DNA of 64,000 bases from Escherichia coli (GCF_030013595.1 NZ_CP122768.1), one strand, 5' to 3'. Shown: positions 23,880 through 32,017, numbered from the stretch's first letter. The notes: generated from the sequence alone by a model not told the origin. Translations and numbers: made by a program.

Positions 23880-25499
23880 TTACATTTGGTACGAAAAATT
23901 AAAATTCACATTCACCCGATCAATATCTAATGTCGCCGGATACTTTAATGGGGTAGAAACGGAAAAGTTATACTCAAGACTTTTAATGTTTCCATCAATA
24001 CCAACTGCCGCGCCCATCAGTGATTCATCGCCATAAGAAGCGTCCTGATACACTTGCCCAAAATCAAGACCGGCATAATAGTTAGCTTTCATTCCAGGCA
24101 AAGGAAATGCCAGCGTATTTTTTATATAAAAATCATCATTCCCTGACAAACCTACGCTATTTTCAAACCCGCGAATACTCCAACGATCGCCAACTGTAAT
24201 TTGATCTTGCAAAGTCAGTTCACGCGGTGCGTACTGGGCAAAAAAAGCAGTATTGTAATATCCATTCTTTATTTGTCGGGTATAGTTACCCTCAAAATTA
24301 AAGATATTGCTTACCGGGCTAACGTCGCCATATTGCATATCTGGCGTTTTTTCACCACCGAACCAGGTTAAAAAGCGTTGCCACGAGAGGGTTGAATCCC
24401 AGAACGCGTCGGGTAACTGTTGCTTATAATTTAGTCCCAGTTTGATATTTCCCATATCCCGCGCCTGTAATGTCAGCTCCTCACCATTAAGCGTGTAATT
24501 CGACTTTCGACGAATGAGTTCTGCACTACCGGCGAATTTTTTTGTTTTATCGCGATAAACGGTACGCGTCGCCTTTGCGCTCAAGTATTCGCTGGTGCCA
24601 ACATAATCCAGCGAGATGTACGAAAGCGGAATCACCTGCTGCGATTTACTTTTGCTATAGAAAAAGCCGTACTCCCAGTAACCCACCGGAATGGAATAAT
24701 AACTACTGACGTTTTCATACTGTCCTGTAGTACTACGCGTACCGGCGAGATAAAACAGATCCCCCATTTTCGCTGGATTAAACAGATAACCCACCGCGGT
24801 TGTCTGGTAACGGCCCGTTTCTTCATCGCCCCAATTGTTGTAACTTGCCCGAACGCTCCAGTTTTTCCCCCGGTGTGTATCAATATGAACGACGCTATAA
24901 CCATCCCGTGTTCCCGGTTCAATATTAATTTTCACATCAACGTCAGGTACTCGCTGAAGATTTTCCAGCCCCTGTTCAATATCGCGAATATTGAGAATAT
25001 CGTTACGCTGAAAAGGTAACATCCATTCACTGATGTCATTACCTTCCACAATCGTTTTTTCTATCTTCCCGGCATTAACCTGGAAACGTAGCTTGCCTTT
25101 AGAAATATCCTGCGAAGGGATACTAATTCGCGTTGTGATATATCCGGCATTAATATAATAATCCTGCAAGGCAGCAGCAATTTTTTGCACACCAGCACTA
25201 CCGACACAACGTCCGGCAATCGCTTTTTGCACTTCAGAAATCAACTGACCACCCAGAAAGTTATCTTCCAGTTCTACCCGATTAATGATAAAGCAATTCT
25301 TTTCCTGCGGCAGATCACCCAGAGTAAACGCATCACGTTGTGCATTTGAGTAAACATCTTTTTTTTCTAATTTATGCGCGCGTAACGTGCTTTCATCTGC
25401 ATTTTTTTGCTGCTTGATCAAATGATCAAGACTGTCTTTCGCTGCAACCTGAAAACAACAAAGAATGAGCAGCAAACCAAAATTAAATCGTAAGTGCAT
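23880..25499 (-). CDS. Two-partner secretion outer-membrane transporter TpsB (ShlB/FhaC family, 539 aa)
   Basis: Signal peptide, POTRA-like N-region, beta-barrel with C-terminal ...NFNFSYQM; gene adjacent to TpsA-like exoprotein. Confidence 0.75.
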   Translation of the reverse strand: MHLRFNFGLLLILCCFQVAAKDSLDHLIKQQKNADESTLRAHKLEKKDVYSNAQRDAFTLGDLPQEKNCFIINRVELEDNFLGGQLISEVQKAIAGRCVGSAGVQKIAAALQDYYINAGYITTRISIPSQDISKGKLRFQVNAGKIEKTIVEGNDISEWMLPFQRNDILNIRDIEQGLENLQRVPDVDVKINIEPGTRDGYSVVHIDTHRGKNWSVRASYNNWGDEETGRYQTTAVGYLFNPAKMGDLFYLAGTRSTTGQYENVSSYYSIPVGYWEYGFFYSKSKSQQVIPLSYISLDYVGTSEYLSAKATRTVYRDKTKKFAGSAELIRRKSNYTLNGEELTLQARDMGNIKLGLNYKQQLPDAFWDSTLSWQRFLTWFGGEKTPDMQYGDVSPVSNIFNFEGNYTRQIKNGYYNTAFFAQYAPRELTLQDQITVGDRWSIRGFENSVGLSGNDDFYIKNTLAFPLPGMKANYYAGLDFGQVYQDASYGDESLMGAAVGIDGNIKSLEYNFSVSTPLKYPATLDIDRVNVNFNFSYQM

Positions 25500-25587: not shown

Positions 25588-28500
25588 TTACATGCCGACA
25601 ATAGTACCGGTGTTATCAGTTTCGTTTGCTTCTAACGCTAAACCGTAGAAGCCACCGAGAACAGCGTCTTTACCGCTATTCGTAACCTTATTTGCCGATA
25701 CGCCAGCGACACCATAACTCAGCATATTGAGGTAGTTATAAATATTACCGGTGGTCTTAACCCCCAGAGAATAATCACCCACAATATTTCCACGGTTATT
25801 AATGTCATTCACGGCATTGATCGCGATGGTTTGCCCCAACATATTACTGTTGCTGTTGTTGGTAACATACTTCTGCGTATCAATAGTCAGCGCAGTTCCC
25901 GCCACAATGTCTTTAAAGTTCTCAACACCGTTCAGGGCATTAATGGTCAGCGCGTTGTCCGCTGCGATGGCATTACGGTTATACAGCGTGCCTTTCAGAA
26001 CATTGAAATGCACATCCCCTTTACCGCTGATCCAACCATAGTTCGTGACGCTGTTATCCACGTTCAGATCCAGGTTTTTGTCAGACGCAATCACGCCCGT
26101 GGCGGTATTGTCTTCCAGGCGACCATCGCTGGCGTTGTTCAACGACGCCGCATAAACGTCGAGATTACCGGCGCTGTAAGTGGTGGCATAGTTGTTGTAG
26201 AACATACCAGCCGCACGGATGATGGCATCAGCCCCACTGCTAAGAAGCGCGCGGGTATTATCCAGCGTTCCCCTGGACAGCAGATTAAGCGGACCATTTT
26301 CAGCGATGATGCTGCTGTTATTGTTGTAGACGTTCTGAGCAGAAAGCGTGACACCTTCTTTACCTACGATGCCGCCAACGTTGTCGGTAATTCCAAACAG
26401 CGCGCCGTTATTACGCAGGAAGTTATTCCCGTCGCGGTTTTCGAGGTTGCCGCCAGCGTTAATAACCAGCTTTTTATTCGCCGCGATCAGCGCAGTGTTG
26501 TTATAAATCGTCGATTTAGCATCGACAGAAACATTCTCACCGGCAATCAGACCATAGGCGTTGTCTATGATGTTTGCTGTCAGAGTCACGTCGCCCGTTT
26601 CAGAGGTCAGCGAGCCCTTAAAGCTGTCGTAGTTGCCCGTCAGTGCCAGCGTGACATCGTCATAACCACGAATTTCACCGTAGTCGTTGTTCAGATTGCT
26701 GCCTTTTACAGACAACACGCCGTTCAACGCATGCAGATTACCGCGGTTGTTACCCACGTTGCCCTTCGAATCGATAATCAGATCGCCTGTCGCTTCGATG
26801 GTCGCGTTATTGTTCGCCACGCTATTTGCCGTTAATGCGACATCCCCATAACCCACCATATAGAGATAGTTATACAGGTTGCCTTTGGTCGTCACGTTCA
26901 AGTCAGCGTCACTGACAATGTTGCCACAGTTGTTGATATCGTTAACCGCGTTAATAACGATATTCTGCCCCACCATATTGCTGTTGGAGTTGTTGGTCAC
27001 ATGGCGATTGGTGTTCATCGTCAGGTCGCCGCCAGCAGAAATATCCTTCCAGTTTTCAATACCGTTCAACGCGGCAATATCCAGCCCCTTTTCAGCCGCA
27101 ATGGTATTGCGGTTATACAGGTTGCCGTTATTCACCGTGACATCAACATCGCCTTTACCGCTGATCCAGCCGTAGTTGGTAAGGCTATTCACCACTTCCA
27201 GTGACAGATTTTTATCAGATGCAATAAACCCGGTCGCATTGTTATCGATCATCGTACCGCTGCTGCTGTTTTGCAGCGTGGTCGCGTCGATATCCAGGTT
27301 GCCCGCACTCCAGGTGGTAGCGTAGTTGTTGTAATACGTTCCGCCAACTTGAATAGATGCATCCGCCCCGCTGGTGACCAGAGCACGCGTGTTGTCGAAC
27401 GTGTTCTGTGCCTGGAGAGTCAGAGGACCATCCTCAGCGATAAGACGACTGTTGTTGTTATAGATGTTCTGCCCGGAAAGCTCGATGCCTTCCTTGCCGA
27501 CCATTCCACCCGTTTGCTGAGGCATGCCGAAGTACAGACCATATGCATTACCGAAGCTATTGCCATCGCGGTTTTCAATATTACCGAACGCGTTTATCTT
27601 CAGTTTTTTGCTGGCCACGATCAGCGCTGTGTTGTTATTGACGCCAGACATCGACTCCATCGTGATGTTCTGCCCCATCATGAAGCCGCCGTGGTTGTCC
27701 ACTGAGTTGGCTAACAGGGAGATATCACCCTCTTCAGAGCTGATCACGCCAATGTTATTGGTCAGGCTGCCGCCAACGGCGACTTCAATACCCTGCTTAC
27801 CGCTGATCCCCCCGGTATCGTTACGCAGTGAGCTTCCCTTGATAATCACTTTGCTGTTGGACAGAATTTTGCCCGCATAATCGTCGACCGTGCTGTAACT
27901 TGACAGGGAGACGTTGCCATTAGACGCAATCTGTCCGCCATTGTTATTGATGTTGTTCGCACCAATTTCTACGCCGGTATCTGCAATAATGCCCAGAGAG
28001 TCAGAACTGCCGGTATCGGCGGTTTTGGTTGAACCATTATTTACGCTACCTGCCGCACCAATAACGATATGCCCGGTGGAGGAACGGATCAGACCTTTGT
28101 TGTTATCCACATTACCGTTACTGATAATGGCGATGTCGCCAGTGGTCTGAATATCACCGTTGTTGTTATTCAACGCGCCTGATTCAAGCCCCACATAACC
28201 GCCTCGAATCTGACCATTGCTGTTGTTGAGCGTCCCGGTTTTCAGCGCCACGATACCCGCTTCAATCCCGACAGAACTCCCTTTACCAGAGTTAATCAGC
28301 GTGGCGTTATTGGTATCGACCGCCAGCATACCTGCTGCCGCAAGCTTGCCGTTGGTATTGTCAATCGTACCGCTGTTAACGTAGATATCGCCCATCGTAG
28401 AGATGTTACCCGCACGGGTATTCACGATAGTATTCTTGTTGGTATTGAGCGAGATAGTGCCTACAGATGTCACCGTACCGGTGGTGTTATCCAGAGTACC

Positions 28501-29400
28501 ATTTGTCGTCAGGTTGATCGTGCTTGCAGACTGAATCTGGGCATTGCTATTTAACAGGTTACCTTTGGAATCGATGCTGACACCATTAACACCCCCAGCA
28601 ATAACGCCGAGGTTGCGAACCCCTACACCTTTCTCGGTGCTAACCAGACTGATTTTGTTCGCATACATTCCGCCCAGTTTGGCAACATCTACGCTGTAAC
28701 CGTTACGGGAACCCGTGGCGGATACGCTACCGGTCACCTGGCCTGCGGCGTTAACATAGTTATTGCCAGCAACAACGTTCAGCTCATCGGCAGACACTTT
28801 GCCGTTAACCACCACGTTACGGGAAAGAATTTCTGTCGGGCTGGCGTTATCCAGTTTACCGAGCGTAATGGTACCGCCGTTCACGGAATAACCGGCCAGC
28901 TTGTCATCCTGGATATCCGGCGTCCCGGTGGTTAAGGTCAGTTTACCTGTATTGATTGAACCACCACCGTTTACAGTAATACCATTCGGGTTGGCAATAA
29001 TCAGATCCGCTTTATCCCCTGCAACTTCCATCATCCCATTAATGGTTGAAGGATTTTTGGAAGTAACCTCATTCAGGATCACCTTCGCCGACCCGGAGGT
29101 CAGATTACTGTTTCCCTGAATATTTCCGGCAAGTGAAGTACTGGATTCATTAGCGCTGTTATTGAAAACGACACCATTTTTATCAACGTTTAGGTTATCC
29201 CAGATATTATGAGATAAACCGCTACCGTTAGGTTTGTTGATGTCTACGACTGGCACACCATTGGCGTTATATACCGTTCCATTTTTTATGACTAATCCCG
29301 CCGCTTGAGAAGCTACAGGAAAAGACAACATCATAAGTATAGCAATAGGGGTTAATGCTTTACCCACCGTTGCTTCCTTACTTAAATTTATCATCGCCAC
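25588..29400 (-). CDS. TpsA exoprotein, filamentous haemagglutinin/haemolysin-like (1270 aa)
   Basis: Extended signal peptide; N-terminal TPS domain with ANPNGITVNGG and NPNGI-type motifs; long Asn/Gly/Thr-rich beta-helical repeats with internal ~1.13-kb duplication. Confidence 0.8.
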   Translation of the reverse strand: MAMINLSKEATVGKALTPIAILMMLSFPVASQAAGLVIKNGTVYNANGVPVVDINKPNGSGLSHNIWDNLNVDKNGVVFNNSANESSTSLAGNIQGNSNLTSGSAKVILNEVTSKNPSTINGMMEVAGDKADLIIANPNGITVNGGGSINTGKLTLTTGTPDIQDDKLAGYSVNGGTITLGKLDNASPTEILSRNVVVNGKVSADELNVVAGNNYVNAAGQVTGSVSATGSRNGYSVDVAKLGGMYANKISLVSTEKGVGVRNLGVIAGGVNGVSIDSKGNLLNSNAQIQSASTINLTTNGTLDNTTGTVTSVGTISLNTNKNTIVNTRAGNISTMGDIYVNSGTIDNTNGKLAAAGMLAVDTNNATLINSGKGSSVGIEAGIVALKTGTLNNSNGQIRGGYVGLESGALNNNNGDIQTTGDIAIISNGNVDNNKGLIRSSTGHIVIGAAGSVNNGSTKTADTGSSDSLGIIADTGVEIGANNINNNGGQIASNGNVSLSSYSTVDDYAGKILSNSKVIIKGSSLRNDTGGISGKQGIEVAVGGSLTNNIGVISSEEGDISLLANSVDNHGGFMMGQNITMESMSGVNNNTALIVASKKLKINAFGNIENRDGNSFGNAYGLYFGMPQQTGGMVGKEGIELSGQNIYNNNSRLIAEDGPLTLQAQNTFDNTRALVTSGADASIQVGGTYYNNYATTWSAGNLDIDATTLQNSSSGTMIDNNATGFIASDKNLSLEVVNSLTNYGWISGKGDVDVTVNNGNLYNRNTIAAEKGLDIAALNGIENWKDISAGGDLTMNTNRHVTNNSNSNMVGQNIVINAVNDINNCGNIVSDADLNVTTKGNLYNYLYMVGYGDVALTANSVANNNATIEATGDLIIDSKGNVGNNRGNLHALNGVLSVKGSNLNNDYGEIRGYDDVTLALTGNYDSFKGSLTSETGDVTLTANIIDNAYGLIAGENVSVDAKSTIYNNTALIAANKKLVINAGGNLENRDGNNFLRNNGALFGITDNVGGIVGKEGVTLSAQNVYNNNSSIIAENGPLNLLSRGTLDNTRALLSSGADAIIRAAGMFYNNYATTYSAGNLDVYAASLNNASDGRLEDNTATGVIASDKNLDLNVDNSVTNYGWISGKGDVHFNVLKGTLYNRNAIAADNALTINALNGVENFKDIVAGTALTIDTQKYVTNNSNSNMLGQTIAINAVNDINNRGNIVGDYSLGVKTTGNIYNYLNMLSYGVAGVSANKVTNSGKDAVLGGFYGLALEANETDNTGTIVGM

Positions 29401-30790
29401 TAACGTTTTCCTTATTGATGCTATTCATTTTGGACATGCAGATCACTTTTGATGACTCACGGAATATCAGCAAAAATGATTGCGGCAAATCCTATCACCT
29501 GGCGCAATAAAAAATCATGAAAAATAAGCTGAAATAAGGACTCAAAAAAACAACTAAGAGTTATTGTTTTTTCATCGAACGGCGAAGTACCTAACTTACT
29601 AAAACACAATAATTTAAAAGTCCCCCATCCTTCCTCCTTGGGTGAAAAAAATCCATTTTAGAGGATGTCTGAAATGATATGTAGTTTTCTGTACGACATC
29701 ATTTCAGACATCCGAATAAAACAACAAATTTGATGAGTTACAATTAATTTAAATCTTGTTATTTGATTAACAAAGCATCATCATTACTGCATCTCATTCT
29801 CTATATCTTTTACGTCGGGGTAGATTCTTTATGGTCATTACGGGCAGGCGACATTTCATTATATTACCACTTTCATTCACACTTGTAACCCTTAAGAGTT
29901 ATATAAAAAGGAAATAGTTCTTGCTCATGGTATTACTGAGATCGGATTAACCATGAGGTTAGCTATATAGAGAACTTTGGCTTTGCGACAATTGGCTTAA
30001 GCAGCCACATTATGCCTGGCTTATCGTTGAAAGGGAGAAAGAAGAGCAAAACGGTTTGGCAAGCTTTCATTCCCATCTAATAGCAATCACCGCTATACAT
30101 CATCCCTTAACGTACTCTGGCCTTCATAAAAATGTTATTCTAAATTAAAGATTGTAATGATTTTAATAATATTGTTATTATTTTGCAACAAATCAATCTA
30201 ACACAATGATTATTAGCGATTTTTTATTAGTTAAGAGAAATTGTTTTTACAGATTGAGCTACAATTCCGCTCATTTTTCACCACAGGAAAAGCTGAAGTA
30301 ATCTTAAATGACTGTATTAACCCTTTTCTCCGCTGCCAGCACTCTTAAATATCGTTGTTCTATTGTTATAAAAACAGCTTTTTTGACATAAAAAGTAATA
30401 GCTAAAGCCATTATGTAGCACTTCCAACCTGAATAGACCGCAAAAAACAACCCTATACAGAATAAAACTCTGTTCATCATCTTTCGGTAAGAATTAAATT
30501 ACTATATTACCGTTCAACATCAGTATGAATGAAAATTCAATTGTTATACATGTGATGAATGTCATATATTGTGCTCATCGATTGCAGGACATCGCTATTC
30601 TTTTAGAGATACAGATATCACGCTGTTACTCTCTGTATAAAGCACACGCAAAGATTAGTTGTGTTACTGCAGTTGTTATGTCGCATATGGAAAGCCCATT
30701 GTTACATCTTTAGTAAAAAGTTTTATTCACTTTCAAAATTTTTACTCCATGAAGATGGGCTGTTTTGCTGCAAGCAATTGAGTTAGTGCA
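29401..30790. promoter_or_regulatory. 1.39-kb AT-rich divergent control region between the TpsA operon and the fimbrial operon
   Basis: No credible ORF; very AT-rich; contains a perfect 16-bp inverted repeat at 29663-29713. Confidence 0.5.
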
Positions 30791-31414
30791 ATGAACAAGA
30801 ACTTACTAACAAGGGTAATTATCATTTCGGATGATCTATATTACCTTCAGGGATTAAGTGCAAAACCAGGTAACCATTATCGTTTTTTTATTGAGTGTTT
30901 TTTTTGTTCTCAAAATGCATGTAATAATGACCTAAGTACACTTAGATTTGATAACCGCTTTACCAAAAACGTACTTCTTGTCGCAGTGGATGACGTAAGT
31001 ATACTTGCAAAACTGCCAGATTTGGCCAGGTTTTTAATGATTGTTTCACTCAGACAGATGAAAAACAGAAATATCTTCTTTTCACTTTCAGAGCAAACAT
31101 TCATTAGCCGATATATAAAATTGAATAAACTCATTACTTTGATTAAAAGTACTGATAAAGACCAGCAAGTCAGACAGGTGACTCTGACAAGGTATGAGTG
31201 GGATATCTATTACTTATATTTTAAGATAGATAACAAAAGAATATTGCACACCCTGCTAAAAAAGGATGTCAAGTACATTAGCCACTATAAAATATCGGTT
31301 TTCAACAAGTTTGAAATTGCTTGTGATAGTGATGGCTTTTACATTTTCAAGGCACTTATACAGTTAAGGAGATTTACCGGTTTTAAAAACGTCAGATTGT
31401 ATCAATTGCATTAA
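30791..31414 (+). CDS. Hypothetical protein upstream of fimbrial operon (207 aa), possible operon regulator
   Basis: AT-rich ORF with low-GC codon usage, no signal peptide; position immediately 5' of major pilin gene. Confidence 0.4.
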   Translation: MNKNLLTRVIIISDDLYYLQGLSAKPGNHYRFFIECFFCSQNACNNDLSTLRFDNRFTKNVLLVAVDDVSILAKLPDLARFLMIVSLRQMKNRNIFFSLSEQTFISRYIKLNKLITLIKSTDKDQQVRQVTLTRYEWDIYYLYFKIDNKRILHTLLKKDVKYISHYKISVFNKFEIACDSDGFYIFKALIQLRRFTGFKNVRLYQLH

Positions 31415-31456
31415 TTATCTCGTTCTATATTAACTCTAAATTTCAAGGATATTAAT

Positions 31457-32017
31457 ATGTTTTCTACTTTCAAAAAAGCAGCTCTGCTGGCAGCTATCGC
31501 ATTACCTTTTTCTACCATGGCTGCACCGACAGTCACTTTTCAGGGTGAAGTAACCGATCAGACCTGTTCCGTAAATATCAACGGTCAAACCAATTCAGTA
31601 GTATTGCTGCCGACCGTAGCCATGGCTGACTTCGGTGCAACTTTAGCTGATGGCCAGAGCGCAGGCCAGACGCCGTTTACGGTTTCTGTGTCTAACTGCC
31701 AGGCTCCGACTGGTGCAGATCAGGCAATCAACACCACTTTCCTGGGCTACGACGTGGACGCTAGCACGGGTGTTATGGGAAACCGTGATACCAGCAGCGA
31801 CGCGGCGAAAGGCTTTGGCATTCAGTTAATGGATTCCAGCACTTCTGGTAACCCAGTAACTCTGGCTGGCGCGACTAACGTACCGGGTTTGACCCTGAAA
31901 GTTGGCGATACTGAAGCCAGCTACGACTTCGGTGCGCGTTACTTCGTTATCGATAGCGCAGCTGCCACTGCCGGTAAAATTACCGCTGTCGCAGAATACA
32001 CCCTGAGCTACCTCTAA
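31457..32017 (+). CDS. Chaperone-usher fimbrial major subunit (186 aa)
   Basis: Signal peptide MFSTFKKAALLAAIALPFSTMAAPTVTFQGEVTDQTC, conserved pilin Cys pair, C-terminal ...AEYTLSYL donor-strand-type end. Confidence 0.8.
   Translation: MFSTFKKAALLAAIALPFSTMAAPTVTFQGEVTDQTCSVNINGQTNSVVLLPTVAMADFGATLADGQSAGQTPFTVSVSNCQAPTGADQAINTTFLGYDVDASTGVMGNRDTSSDAAKGFGIQLMDSSTSGNPVTLAGATNVPGLTLKVGDTEASYDFGARYFVIDSAAATAGKITAVAEYTLSYL

What the first reader, a model, noticed from the sequence alone, without database searches (positions are those of the whole stretch)
29401..30790. 1.39-kb AT-rich ORF-free divergent control region with a perfect 16-bp inverted repeat
The TpsA operon and the fimbrial operon diverge from an unusually long non-coding region. 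At 29663-29713 the sequence GGATGTCTGAAATGAT, a 19-nt spacer, then ATCATTTCAGACATCC forms a perfect inverted repeat, a candidate dimeric regulator operator or RNA hairpin. The AT-richness suggests nucleoid-protein silencing of both horizontally acquired operons. A less AT-rich stretch around 29930-30150 may hide a small RNA or gene remnant.
Basis: seen in the sequence. Interest (0 to 1): 0.45.

Follow-up and report, generated by a model that had tools for sequence, protein, structure and literature searches.

The report
Hairpin palindrome in otpA–loc6 control region
The long AT-rich gap between a secreted-protein operon (otpAB) and a fimbrial operon (loc6) in E. coli O-island 47 is non-coding, and it holds a single-copy 51-base palindrome whose pairing has been kept in evolution plus a conserved promoter for a previously unrecognised regulator gene; this is a modestly interesting, untested control region, not a new kind of system.

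Summary
Window 29401-30790 is a 1,390-bp, 33.6% GC gap between otpA (minus strand) and the first gene of the loc6 fimbrial operon (plus strand). This is O-island 47 of E. coli O157:H7, present once in 380 of 5,426 complete E. coli genomes and never annotated there.

The 16-19-16 inverted repeat is exact at 29663-29713. It is far beyond chance, single-copy, and not part of any repeat or Rfam family.

Across 31 alleles, two stem pairs changed on both sides (G-C to A-T). All four one-sided transitions give G·U on the otpA-sense strand but mismatches on the other strand. This favours a base-paired element, most likely an RNA stem-loop in an otpA leader, over a protein operator. Transcription is unproven, and templated palindrome correction is a serious rival.

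otpA orthologues in other genera lack the hairpin.

On the loc6 side, a -35/-10 promoter (30541-30570) is conserved with a distant relative. The downstream "hypothetical" 207-aa gene folds as a NarL/FixJ-type regulator.

The less AT-rich stretch shows no gene remnant or structured RNA. H-NS silencing is plausible but untested.

The parts
29401..30790 (.). 1,390-bp non-coding, AT-rich (33.6% GC) region between divergent otpA and the loc6 operon. It corresponds to Sakai NC_002695.2 1348686-1350075, between ECs1281 and ECs1282.
29663..29678 (.). Left arm of the perfect inverted repeat, GGATGTCTGAAATGAT. The inner 11 nt are invariant in 31 alleles; the outer 5 vary.
29679..29697 (.). 19-nt spacer, which forms the loop and contains a 3-4 bp inner stem. 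It has the same orientation in all alleles, so there is no inversion.
29698..29713 (.). Right arm of the inverted repeat, ATCATTTCAGACATCC.
29656..29721 (-). Extended predicted stem-loop on the otpA-sense strand: an outer A-U stem, the 16-18 bp core, and an inner stem. Free energy is about -29 to -30 kcal/mol. It lies 263-313 nt upstream of the otpA start.
29645..29651 (-). T7 run on the otpA-sense strand. It begins 11 nt after the core stem, or 2-4 nt after the extended A-U stem depending on which predicted fold is used. It could act as a weak terminator or attenuator tail. It is T6-T8 in all alleles.
29401..29600 (-). otpA-proximal conserved block (13 variable columns in 200). It is the presumed otpA leader and/or promoter, but no TSS is known.
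29442..29480 (-). Second predicted leader hairpin. The divergent-clade substitutions fall in the loop or bulge, or turn U·G into U-A.
30488..30500 (+). Box TAAGAATTAAATT, identical in a distant loc6-like locus (L013). It is a candidate activator site about 41 nt upstream of the -35 hexamer.
30541..30570 (+). Predicted sigma-70 promoter of the loc6 operon: TTGTTA, 18 nt, TATATT. Both hexamers are identical in L013 while the spacer diverged. It implies a 5' UTR of about 210-220 nt.
30791..31414 (+). 207-aa ORF (ECs1281 homologue), annotated 'hypothetical'. It is predicted to be an atypical NarL/FixJ-type regulator (REC-like domain plus LuxR-type HTH) that heads the fimbrial operon.
25588..29400 (-). 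otpA (TpsA exoprotein). otpB (TpsB) follows at 23880-25499.
31457..32017 (+). loc6 major fimbrial subunit, followed by the chaperone, usher, tip subunit and a second chaperone.

Best explanation
The region is lineage-specific junction DNA between two horizontally acquired modules of E. coli O-island 47: otpAB plus fatty-acid/polyketide-like genes on one side, and loc6 fimbriae on the other. It carries no gene. On the loc6 side, a sigma-70 promoter at 30541-30570, with a conserved upstream box at 30488-30500, drives a ~215-nt leader and then a NarL/FixJ-type regulator gene that heads the fimbrial operon. This layout resembles ecpR-ecp or csgD. On the otpA side, the 51-nt palindrome sits 263-313 nt upstream of otpA and is kept base-paired in evolution. 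It most likely acts as an RNA stem-loop in an otpA-sense leader transcript. Its role there could be as a stabiliser, a processing site, or (with the nearby T7 run) a weak attenuator. It is unlikely to be a protein operator. What is shown: the anatomy, single-copy status, conservation, compensatory changes, strand asymmetry, the promoter footprint and the regulator fold. What is inferred: that the hairpin is transcribed, what it does, and that the region is silenced by H-NS.
For: Identity of the locus. Excess over chance. It is the only outstanding structure in the region. Pairing is kept: two pairs (29664/29712 and 29667/29709) changed G-C to A-T on both sides in a clade that is about 13% divergent locally, and the repeat remained perfect there. 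On the otpA-sense strand 127 of 128 cells pair (5 are G·U), against 122 of 128 on the other strand. All four distinct one-sided transitions (T29666C, G29667A which is recurrent, G29663A, and T29692C in the inner stem) are G·U on the minus strand and mismatches on the plus strand. A second leader hairpin tolerates its substitutions. Promoter: the scan hit coincides with hexamers conserved exactly in a locus whose regulator is only 54% identical. Regulator: the model has pLDDT 79, and the Foldseek top hits are EvgA, RcsB, StyR, VraR, VpsT, FixJ and NarL over their full length. A 32%-identical relative also heads a fimbrial subunit-chaperone-usher operon.
Against: No transcription start is known for otpA or anywhere in the gap. 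No TSS in the gap was listed in the held, truncated parts of an EDL933 TSS data set; only a start inside otpA appeared. No promoter upstream of the hairpin passes the scan. The strand asymmetry rests on four sites and could reflect a C-to-T mutation bias. One allele type (C29709A) breaks a pair on both strands and persists in three or more genomes. The O157:H7 allele itself is imperfect. otpA orthologues in Kosakonia, Enterobacter, Mixta, Rahnella and other genera have unrelated upstream DNA and no equivalent hairpin. The element is therefore young and dispensable for otpA as such.
Confidence: 0.4

Rival explanations
1. The palindrome has no selected function. It is a quasipalindrome in neutral AT-rich DNA that arose, and is repeatedly re-perfected, by intramolecular template switching during replication. 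This process copies one arm onto the other, so both-sided 'compensatory' changes arise mutationally.
For: The element is E. coli-specific and absent upstream of otpA orthologues. Site 29667/29709 appears resolved in different ways in different lineages: G-C, A-T, or left as a mismatch. Recombination occurs within the region, as the L004 allele shows. No transcript or binding protein is known. That template switching perfects quasipalindromes in E. coli is established knowledge (Ripley; Lovett laboratory), recalled from memory.
Against: Mismatched alleles persist in large lineages (all O157:H7), so correction is not fast. All four one-sided transitions are tolerated specifically on one strand, which template switching does not predict. 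The inner 11 bp of both arms and most of the loop are invariant.
Confidence: 0.3
2. The repeat is an operator. Two 16-bp half-sites would be bound by a dimeric or tetrameric regulator that controls otpA, loc6 or both. Candidates include the neighbouring NarL/FixJ-like ECs1281 protein, GrvA or RcsB.
For: The symmetry is perfect and the inner 11 bp of each arm are invariant. A DNA-binding-type regulator is encoded about 1.1 kb away.
Against: Half-site centres are 35 bp apart, about 3.3 helical turns. LuxR-type HTH dimers use contiguous or closely spaced repeats (from memory). Symmetric co-variation of both arms is not what selection on a protein site predicts. No further copy of the arm occurs in the 64-kb window at 2 or fewer mismatches and no second copy of the element occurs in any genome. 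The hairpin is absent from the distant loc6-like locus as far as its 507 bp of upstream sequence reach.
Confidence: 0.1
3. The hairpin plus the T7 run is the 3' end of a short otpA-sense transcript (about 90 nt) or a transcriptional attenuator. The transcript would start from a weak promoter just upstream: TTGTTA, 16 nt, TAAATT at 29773-29746, which matches 8 of 12 consensus positions.
For: The extended stem ends 2-4 nt before the T-run (T6-T8 in every allele), depending on the fold. Both hexamers of the candidate promoter are invariant while its spacer varies (read by eye).
Against: The terminator scan finds nothing. The stem base next to the T-run is A-U only, and the core stem ends 11 nt before the T-run. 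The promoter is below the scan threshold. No small RNA or small gene was reported here in the Sakai data that could be checked. There is no Rfam match.
Confidence: 0.1
4. The repeat is a scar or target of a mobile element or site-specific recombinase, such as MITE ends, an att-like core or an invertible switch.
For: It lies in horizontally acquired DNA, at what is probably the junction of two modules.
Against: It is single-copy in every genome. The metagenome scan found only this locus plus three unrelated chance matches. The spacer is never inverted in 31 alleles. No recombinase gene is adjacent. There is no similarity to plasmid records.
Confidence: 0.05

Closest known systems
ecpR(matA)-ecpABCDE control region of E. 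coli (from memory: Martinez-Santos et al. 2012)
   Same: The first gene of a fimbrial operon encodes a ~200-aa LuxR-type HTH regulator. An AT-rich upstream region and a long leader precede it. The operon is silent in the laboratory and reported as repressed by H-NS.
   Different: No sequence relationship was tested or found. ECs1281 is an orphan family with no Pfam hit. loc6 is a classical chaperone-usher operon. No hairpin of this kind is known at ecp.
csgDEFG/csgBAC divergent intergenic region (from memory)
   Same: It is an unusually long AT-rich region between divergent operons for surface structures. One operon starts with an atypical FixJ/NarL-family regulator.
   Different: That region is 754 bp, has many mapped regulator sites and belongs to the core genome. 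Here the region is 1,390 bp, accessory, unmapped, and paired with a two-partner secretion operon.
NarL/FixJ response regulators RcsB, EvgA, VpsT, FixJ and NarL (solved structures)
   Same: The ECs1281 model aligns over its full length with an REC-like alpha/beta domain and a four-helix LuxR-type HTH. It has an acidic pair D14/D15, an acidic residue at 67 and S86.
   Different: Identity is 10-16%. Pfam GerE is below threshold. Arg107 is invariant in the position where, by my own assignment from the alignment (not tested here), the REC lysine would be expected. No partner kinase gene is nearby, and phosphorylation is doubtful.
5'-leader stem-loops that stabilise or process mRNAs, such as the ompA 5' UTR hairpins and RNase III sites (from memory)
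   Same: A long stable stem-loop lies upstream of the coding region on the sense strand, and pairing is kept by compensatory change.
   Different: No transcript is mapped here. The hairpin lies about 260 nt from the start codon, is unusually long and perfect (16-18 bp), and is not conserved with the gene in other genera.
Quasipalindrome template-switch hotspots in E. coli (from memory)
   Same: A short inverted repeat with a small spacer, whose mismatches become 'corrected' to perfect complementarity.
   Different: Those are mutational phenomena measured in reporters. Here mismatched alleles persist and tolerated changes are strand-biased.
Rho-independent terminators
   Same: A stable hairpin with a T-run downstream on the same strand.
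   Different: The stem is only 6/16 G-C. The T-run is 11 nt from the core stem. The consensus scan finds none.

Membership tests
Dispersed repeat family (REP/BIME, ERIC, MITE) | Many related copies per genome | tested here: not met
   There is exactly one place per genome in 380 genomes, in blastn distant mode at E <= 1. The metagenome scan found only this locus plus 3 unrelated chance matches. No other arm copy occurs in the window at 2 or fewer mismatches.
Known RNA family (Rfam 15) | Covariance-model match at the gathering score | tested here: not met
   The only hits were animal miRNA models at 23-26 bits, against gathering scores of 53-54.
Structured cis-acting RNA | Base pairs kept through both-sided (compensatory) changes | tested here: met
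   Two of 16 pairs changed G-C to A-U. On the minus strand 99.2% of cells pair. In the shuffle control, 2 of 500 shuffles reached the observed covariation score. The alleles are few and related.
Structured cis-acting RNA | The element is transcribed on the proposed strand | not testable with these tools
   No TSS in the gap was found in the held, truncated supplements of an EDL933 TSS study. No novel small gene was reported there in Sakai.
Structured cis-acting RNA | Conservation with the regulated gene across species | tested here: not met
   Seventeen otpA orthologue loci (58-77% aa identity) show no similar upstream sequence and no comparable hairpin.
Rho-independent terminator | G+C-rich stem directly followed by a U-run | tested here: not met
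   The scan found 0 sites. The core stem has 6/16 G-C pairs and the T7 run starts 11 nt after it; only a weak A-U extension reaches it.
Palindromic operator of a dimeric regulator | Half-sites closely spaced on one face of the helix | tested here: not met
   The centre-to-centre distance is 35 bp, about 3.3 turns.
Palindromic operator of a dimeric regulator | Binding by a protein | not testable with these tools
   This needs EMSA, pulldown or ChIP.
Invertible phase-variation switch (fimS type) | Inverted repeats flank a promoter-bearing segment that is found in both orientations, with a recombinase nearby | tested here: not met
   The spacer is 19 nt and has the same orientation in 31 alleles. 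No recombinase gene is annotated in the island.
H-NS-silenced xenogeneic DNA | AT content well above that of the host genome, in horizontally acquired DNA | tested here: met
   GC is 33.6% against 47.2% for the window. The island is present in only 7% of complete E. coli genomes and is the described O-island 47.
H-NS-silenced xenogeneic DNA | H-NS high-affinity nucleation motif (TCGATAAATT-like) | tested here: not met
   There are 0 matches with 2 or fewer mismatches, against 3.8 +/- 1.9 in shuffles of the region.
H-NS-silenced xenogeneic DNA | H-NS occupancy and derepression in an hns mutant | not testable with these tools
   No data for this locus were found in the searchable literature.
Sigma-70 promoter (loc6 side, 30541-30570) | -35 and -10 hexamers at 16-18 nt spacing, conserved in relatives | tested here: met
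   The promoter is TTGTTA, 18 nt, TATATT, matching 9 of 12 consensus positions. Both hexamers and the spacing are identical in the distant locus L013 while the spacer sequence differs. Activity is untested.
NarL/FixJ (LuxR-type HTH) regulators, for the 207-aa protein | REC-like domain followed by a four-helix GerE-type HTH | tested here: met
   The AlphaFold2 model has pLDDT 79 and pTM 0.76. Foldseek against PDB gives top hits EvgA, RcsB, StyR, VraR, VpsT, FixJ and NarL, with full-length alignments and probability about 1.0.
NarL/FixJ (LuxR-type HTH) regulators, for the 207-aa protein | Sequence match to Pfam GerE (PF00196) at the curated threshold | tested here: not met
   The protein itself gives no hit. 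Three remote relatives score 14.6-17.5 bits against a cut-off of 23.5. A PDB profile search gives RcsB at E = 0.36-1.2 only.

The most novel reading that the evidence does not exclude
The palindrome is a newly evolved, strand-specific RNA switch in a long otpA leader. It could be a processing or attenuation element, possibly recognised through its invariant loop and inner stem. It would gate expression of the whole otpAB-fatty-acid/polyketide operon and couple it to the divergent loc6 regulator. That would make it an example of a cis-regulatory RNA born within junction DNA of a genomic island.
Probability: 0.15. Interest if true: 0.55.

Novelty: new member of a known kind. Interest (0 to 1): 0.3.

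Why it matters
O-island 47 is a hallmark island of the O157:H7/O55:H7 lineage. Its two surface-structure loci, OtpA and Loc6 fimbriae, have no known function or inducing condition. This work places the likely loc6 promoter and recognises ECs1281 as a probable NarL/FixJ-type regulator, which gives a direct handle for switching Loc6 on: overexpress ECs1281, or delete hns. The hairpin offers a clean test of whether compensatory change in a young palindrome reflects RNA-level selection or templated mutation. None of this changes a general principle. The value is local, to EHEC adhesin regulation and to genome annotation.

Tried and rejected
- **Rfam search of 28900-31300:** only sub-threshold animal miRNA models.
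- **Terminator and promoter scan:** no terminator, and the promoter count equalled the shuffle expectation.
- **Gene-remnant test:** six-frame stop-free segments gave no Pfam hit. No ORF was conserved or coding-like. A 4-codon mini-ORF with a perfect Shine-Dalgarno sequence just after the hairpin loses its ATG in the divergent clade.
- **Paralogue and IS-remnant test:** blastn in distant mode against 5,426 E. coli genomes and against plasmids found only the locus itself.
- **Small RNA in 29930-30150:** the sliding consensus-fold scan shows nothing.
- **Search for the 207-aa protein in 100,044 species genomes:** none found.
- **Profile search against PDB with 3 sequences:** none found.
- **First structure model from 3 sequences:** unusable, pLDDT 45.
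- **Literature:**
  - The original OtpAB paper is not held.
  - The Sakai small-gene supplements report nothing in the gap.
  - The Sy et al. supplements are not held.
  - No TSS in the gap appeared in the held, truncated EDL933 TSS tables.
  - No H-NS data for the locus were found.
- **Fur-box and CRP-like resemblance of the arms:** considered by eye and rejected. The spacing is wrong and only 6 of 9 positions match per half-site.
- **H-NS nucleation motif:** absent.

Full report
**What and where.** otpA-type TpsA (1,270 aa, TPS and haemagglutinin-repeat domains) runs leftwards from 29400, followed by a ShlB/FhaC-type TpsB. A 207-aa ORF starts at 30791 and is followed by a fimbrial subunit, chaperone, usher, a 400-aa fimbrial protein and a second chaperone.

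The 1,390-bp gap occurs once in each of 380 of 5,426 complete E. coli genomes, at 90-99.7% identity. No feature is annotated in it in any of them. Annotation and literature identify the locus as O-island 47 / S-loop 71 of O157:H7. The genes are otpAB (ECs1282-1283), the loc6 fimbrial cluster (ECs1276-1280) and ECs1281, with grvA and vmpA nearby. In Sakai the gap is NC_002695.2 1348686-1350075.

**Is it non-coding?** GC is 33.6% against 47.2% for the window. The AT-rich tract extends from about 29100 to 31600 and includes the 207-aa ORF. ORFs in the gap are 62 aa or shorter. Most are interrupted in some of 13 aligned alleles, and none shows an excess of third-position variation. The ten longest stop-free segments have no Pfam match.

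The middle 781 bp and the whole gap have no second copy in E. coli genomes or in plasmid records. A study of novel small genes in Sakai lists nothing here. The less AT-rich stretch at 29930-30150 has indels among alleles and no conserved or unusually stable structure on either strand. I therefore found no support for a hidden gene remnant or small RNA there.

**The inverted repeat.**
- The arms lie at 29663-29678 and 29698-29713, are perfectly complementary, and have a 19-nt spacer.
- In 400 dinucleotide-preserving shuffles of the gap, the longest perfect inverted repeat with a 3-60 nt spacer was 13 bp or less.
- It is the only such repeat in the 64-kb window.
- As RNA, either strand folds at -28 to -29 kcal/mol, with z = -6.5 and -8.8. 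The fold includes a 3-4 bp inner stem and an outer A-U extension.
- It is the only structure in the gap that stands out in a sliding consensus-fold scan.
- It is single-copy in every genome, even at E <= 1 with 11-nt words.
- A scan of 241 million metagenome records for the arm cores found eight copies of this same E. coli locus and three unrelated chance matches.
- Rfam gives only sub-threshold animal miRNA models.

**How the repeat evolves.** I read 31 alleles, which fall into 9 haplotypes.
- The inner 11 bp of both arms and nearly all of the loop are invariant. The outer five pairs vary.
- A clade that differs by about 13% in this neighbourhood carries G29664A with C29712T, and G29667A with C29709T. 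These are two both-sided changes that leave the repeat perfect.
- Formally, on the otpA-sense (minus) strand 127 of 128 cells form standard pairs, five of them G·U. On the plus strand 122 of 128 do.
- Every one-sided transition seen gives G·U on the minus strand and a C·A or A·C mismatch on the plus strand. These are T29666C (the O157:H7 allele), G29667A (which toggles in at least three lineages), G29663A, and T29692C in the inner stem.
- The single exception is the transversion C29709A. It breaks the pair on both strands and is present in three sampled genomes or contigs.
- A second predicted hairpin nearer otpA (29442-29480) takes its clade-specific substitutions in the loop or bulge, or as U·G to U-A.

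This pattern is what an RNA stem-loop on the otpA-sense strand predicts. It is not what a protein operator predicts, because symmetric co-variation is not expected there and the half-site centres are 35 bp apart.

The numbers are small: four sites gives one-sided p of about 0.06 under a 50:50 null. A C-to-T bias on one strand could mimic the asymmetry. Both-sided changes can also arise mutationally, by template switching within quasipalindromes. I therefore hold the RNA reading at about 0.4 and the 'functionless, self-correcting palindrome' at about 0.3.

**Context on the otpA side.** The hairpin lies 263-313 nt upstream of the otpA start. On the sense strand it is followed by a T-run (29651-29645) that is T6-T8 in every allele. 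The run starts 11 nt after the core stem, and 2-4 nt after the weak A-U extension depending on the fold. That is not a canonical terminator, and the scan finds none.

Next comes a purine-rich tract with a perfect Shine-Dalgarno sequence and a four-codon ORF, but its ATG is lost in the divergent clade. The 200 bp next to otpA are the best-conserved part of that side.

No transcription start in the gap appears in the held, truncated tables of an EDL933 TSS study; only a start inside otpA does. So transcription of the hairpin is inferred, not shown.

otpA orthologues at 58-77% identity exist in Kosakonia, Enterobacter, Mixta, Rahnella, Izhakiella, Buttiauxella and others. In the loci where I read the neighbouring genes they follow wza-wzb-wzc-type genes, and in one of them they precede fatty-acid/polyketide-like genes as in O-island 47. 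Their upstream regions are also AT-rich and often long. However, they share no similarity with the E. coli gap, have no comparable hairpin, and have no ECs1281-family neighbour. The juxtaposition of otp with loc6, the gap and the palindrome are thus specific to the E. coli island.

**Context on the loc6 side.** The 207-aa protein has no Pfam or NCBIfam match. It has close relatives only in E. coli, plus one 54%-identical protein on a metagenomic contig with the same gene order.

Comparing that contig with the window gives a clean footprint. A box, TAAGAATTAAATT (30488-30500), is identical in both. The hexamers TTGTTA (30541-30546) and TATATT (30565-30570) are also identical at the same 18-nt spacing, while the spacer has diverged. 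This is the same site the consensus scan had flagged. I take it as the loc6 promoter, which implies a leader of about 215 nt.

An exhaustive HMMER search found eight remote relatives of 195-223 aa. One of them again heads a fimbrial subunit-chaperone-usher operon. With these in the alignment, AlphaFold2 gives a confident model (pLDDT 79). Its best PDB matches, over the full length, are EvgA, RcsB, StyR, VraR, VpsT, FixJ and NarL.

GerE similarity is only sub-threshold. An acidic pair (D14/D15), an acidic residue at position 67 and Ser86 are conserved. Arg107 is invariant where I would expect the REC lysine, an assignment I made from the alignment and did not test. ECs1281 is therefore best described as an atypical NarL/FixJ-type regulator at the head of the operon. 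From memory, this arrangement is known from ecpR-ecp and csgD.

**H-NS.** The reported silence of these loci under laboratory conditions, which I recall from the OtpAB literature and could not re-read, would fit too. However, the high-affinity H-NS motif is absent (0 matches with 2 or fewer mismatches, against 3.8 expected). I also found no ChIP or hns-mutant data for the locus. The idea remains a reasonable but untested inference.

**Verdict.** The region is a real, lineage-specific control region of a known general kind. Its palindrome is a real, non-random element whose pairing has been conserved, most likely as an otpA-sense RNA hairpin, but its function is unknown and a mutational origin is not excluded. 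The most useful by-products are the placement of the loc6 promoter and the recognition of ECs1281 as a regulator. Interest is modest, at 0.3.

Noticed in passing
window 30791-31414: The 'hypothetical protein' that heads the loc6 operon (ECs1281 homologue) belongs to a small orphan family of ~200-aa proteins. The family is predicted to have a NarL/FixJ (RcsB/EvgA-like) fold. At least two distant members also sit directly upstream of fimbrial subunit-chaperone-usher genes.
   Followed up: yes
window 29614-29639, minus strand: A perfect Shine-Dalgarno sequence, AAGGAGG, is followed by a four-codon ORF (ATG GGG GAC TTT TAA) just downstream of the hairpin and T-run. The ATG is lost in the divergent allele clade, so it is probably not a gene. 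The purine-rich tract itself persists.
   Followed up: partly
window 30488-30500: The box TAAGAATTAAATT is identical in the distant locus L013. Its left half resembles the RcsB half-site TAAGAAT as I recall it. It could be the site of ECs1281 or RcsB. This was not tested.
   Followed up: no
L001 21628-22449 and 20161-20942 (strain 2012C-4221, 99.6-99.7% identical to the window in the gap): In this near-identical strain the virulence regulator gene grvA is annotated as a pseudogene (internal stop), and the neighbouring SDR oxidoreductase gene is frameshifted. The window's own copies were not checked.
   Followed up: no
L006 2391-3013 (strain YZMc3-1): The ECs1281 homologue is frameshifted in this strain.
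   Followed up: no
L026 5001-6938; L027 2740-3879: In contigs of unidentified origin (the close reference-genome orthologues are from Enterobacter and Kosakonia), the otpA homologue follows wza-wzb-wzc-type capsule export genes. On the two contigs where the N-terminus and its surroundings can be read it is truncated, at 315 aa next to a DDE transposase gene and at 379 aa. In L026 the fatty-acid/polyketide-like genes still follow; in L027 different genes follow.
   Followed up: partly
L004 (strain LR14), whole gap: The allele is recombinant. Its otpA-side flank groups with the main clade and its loc6-side flank with the divergent clade, so recombination breakpoints fall inside the gap.
   Followed up: partly
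window 1701-2800, 38001-41900, 42501-43900: Further AT-rich tracts (GC 0.31-0.38) lie in the window. Their gene content was not checked.
   Followed up: no
window 12051-12084: This is the only other short-range inverted repeat found in the window: a G+C-rich overlapping palindrome, 23 nt and 78% complementary.
   Followed up: no
window 29365-29400: The otpA start is ambiguous. RefSeq uses the GTG at 29400, another EDL933 annotation starts 6 nt downstream at an ATG, and a GTG 36 nt downstream has a better Shine-Dalgarno sequence and would give a classical signal peptide. This moves the gap boundary by 36 nt at most.
   Followed up: no
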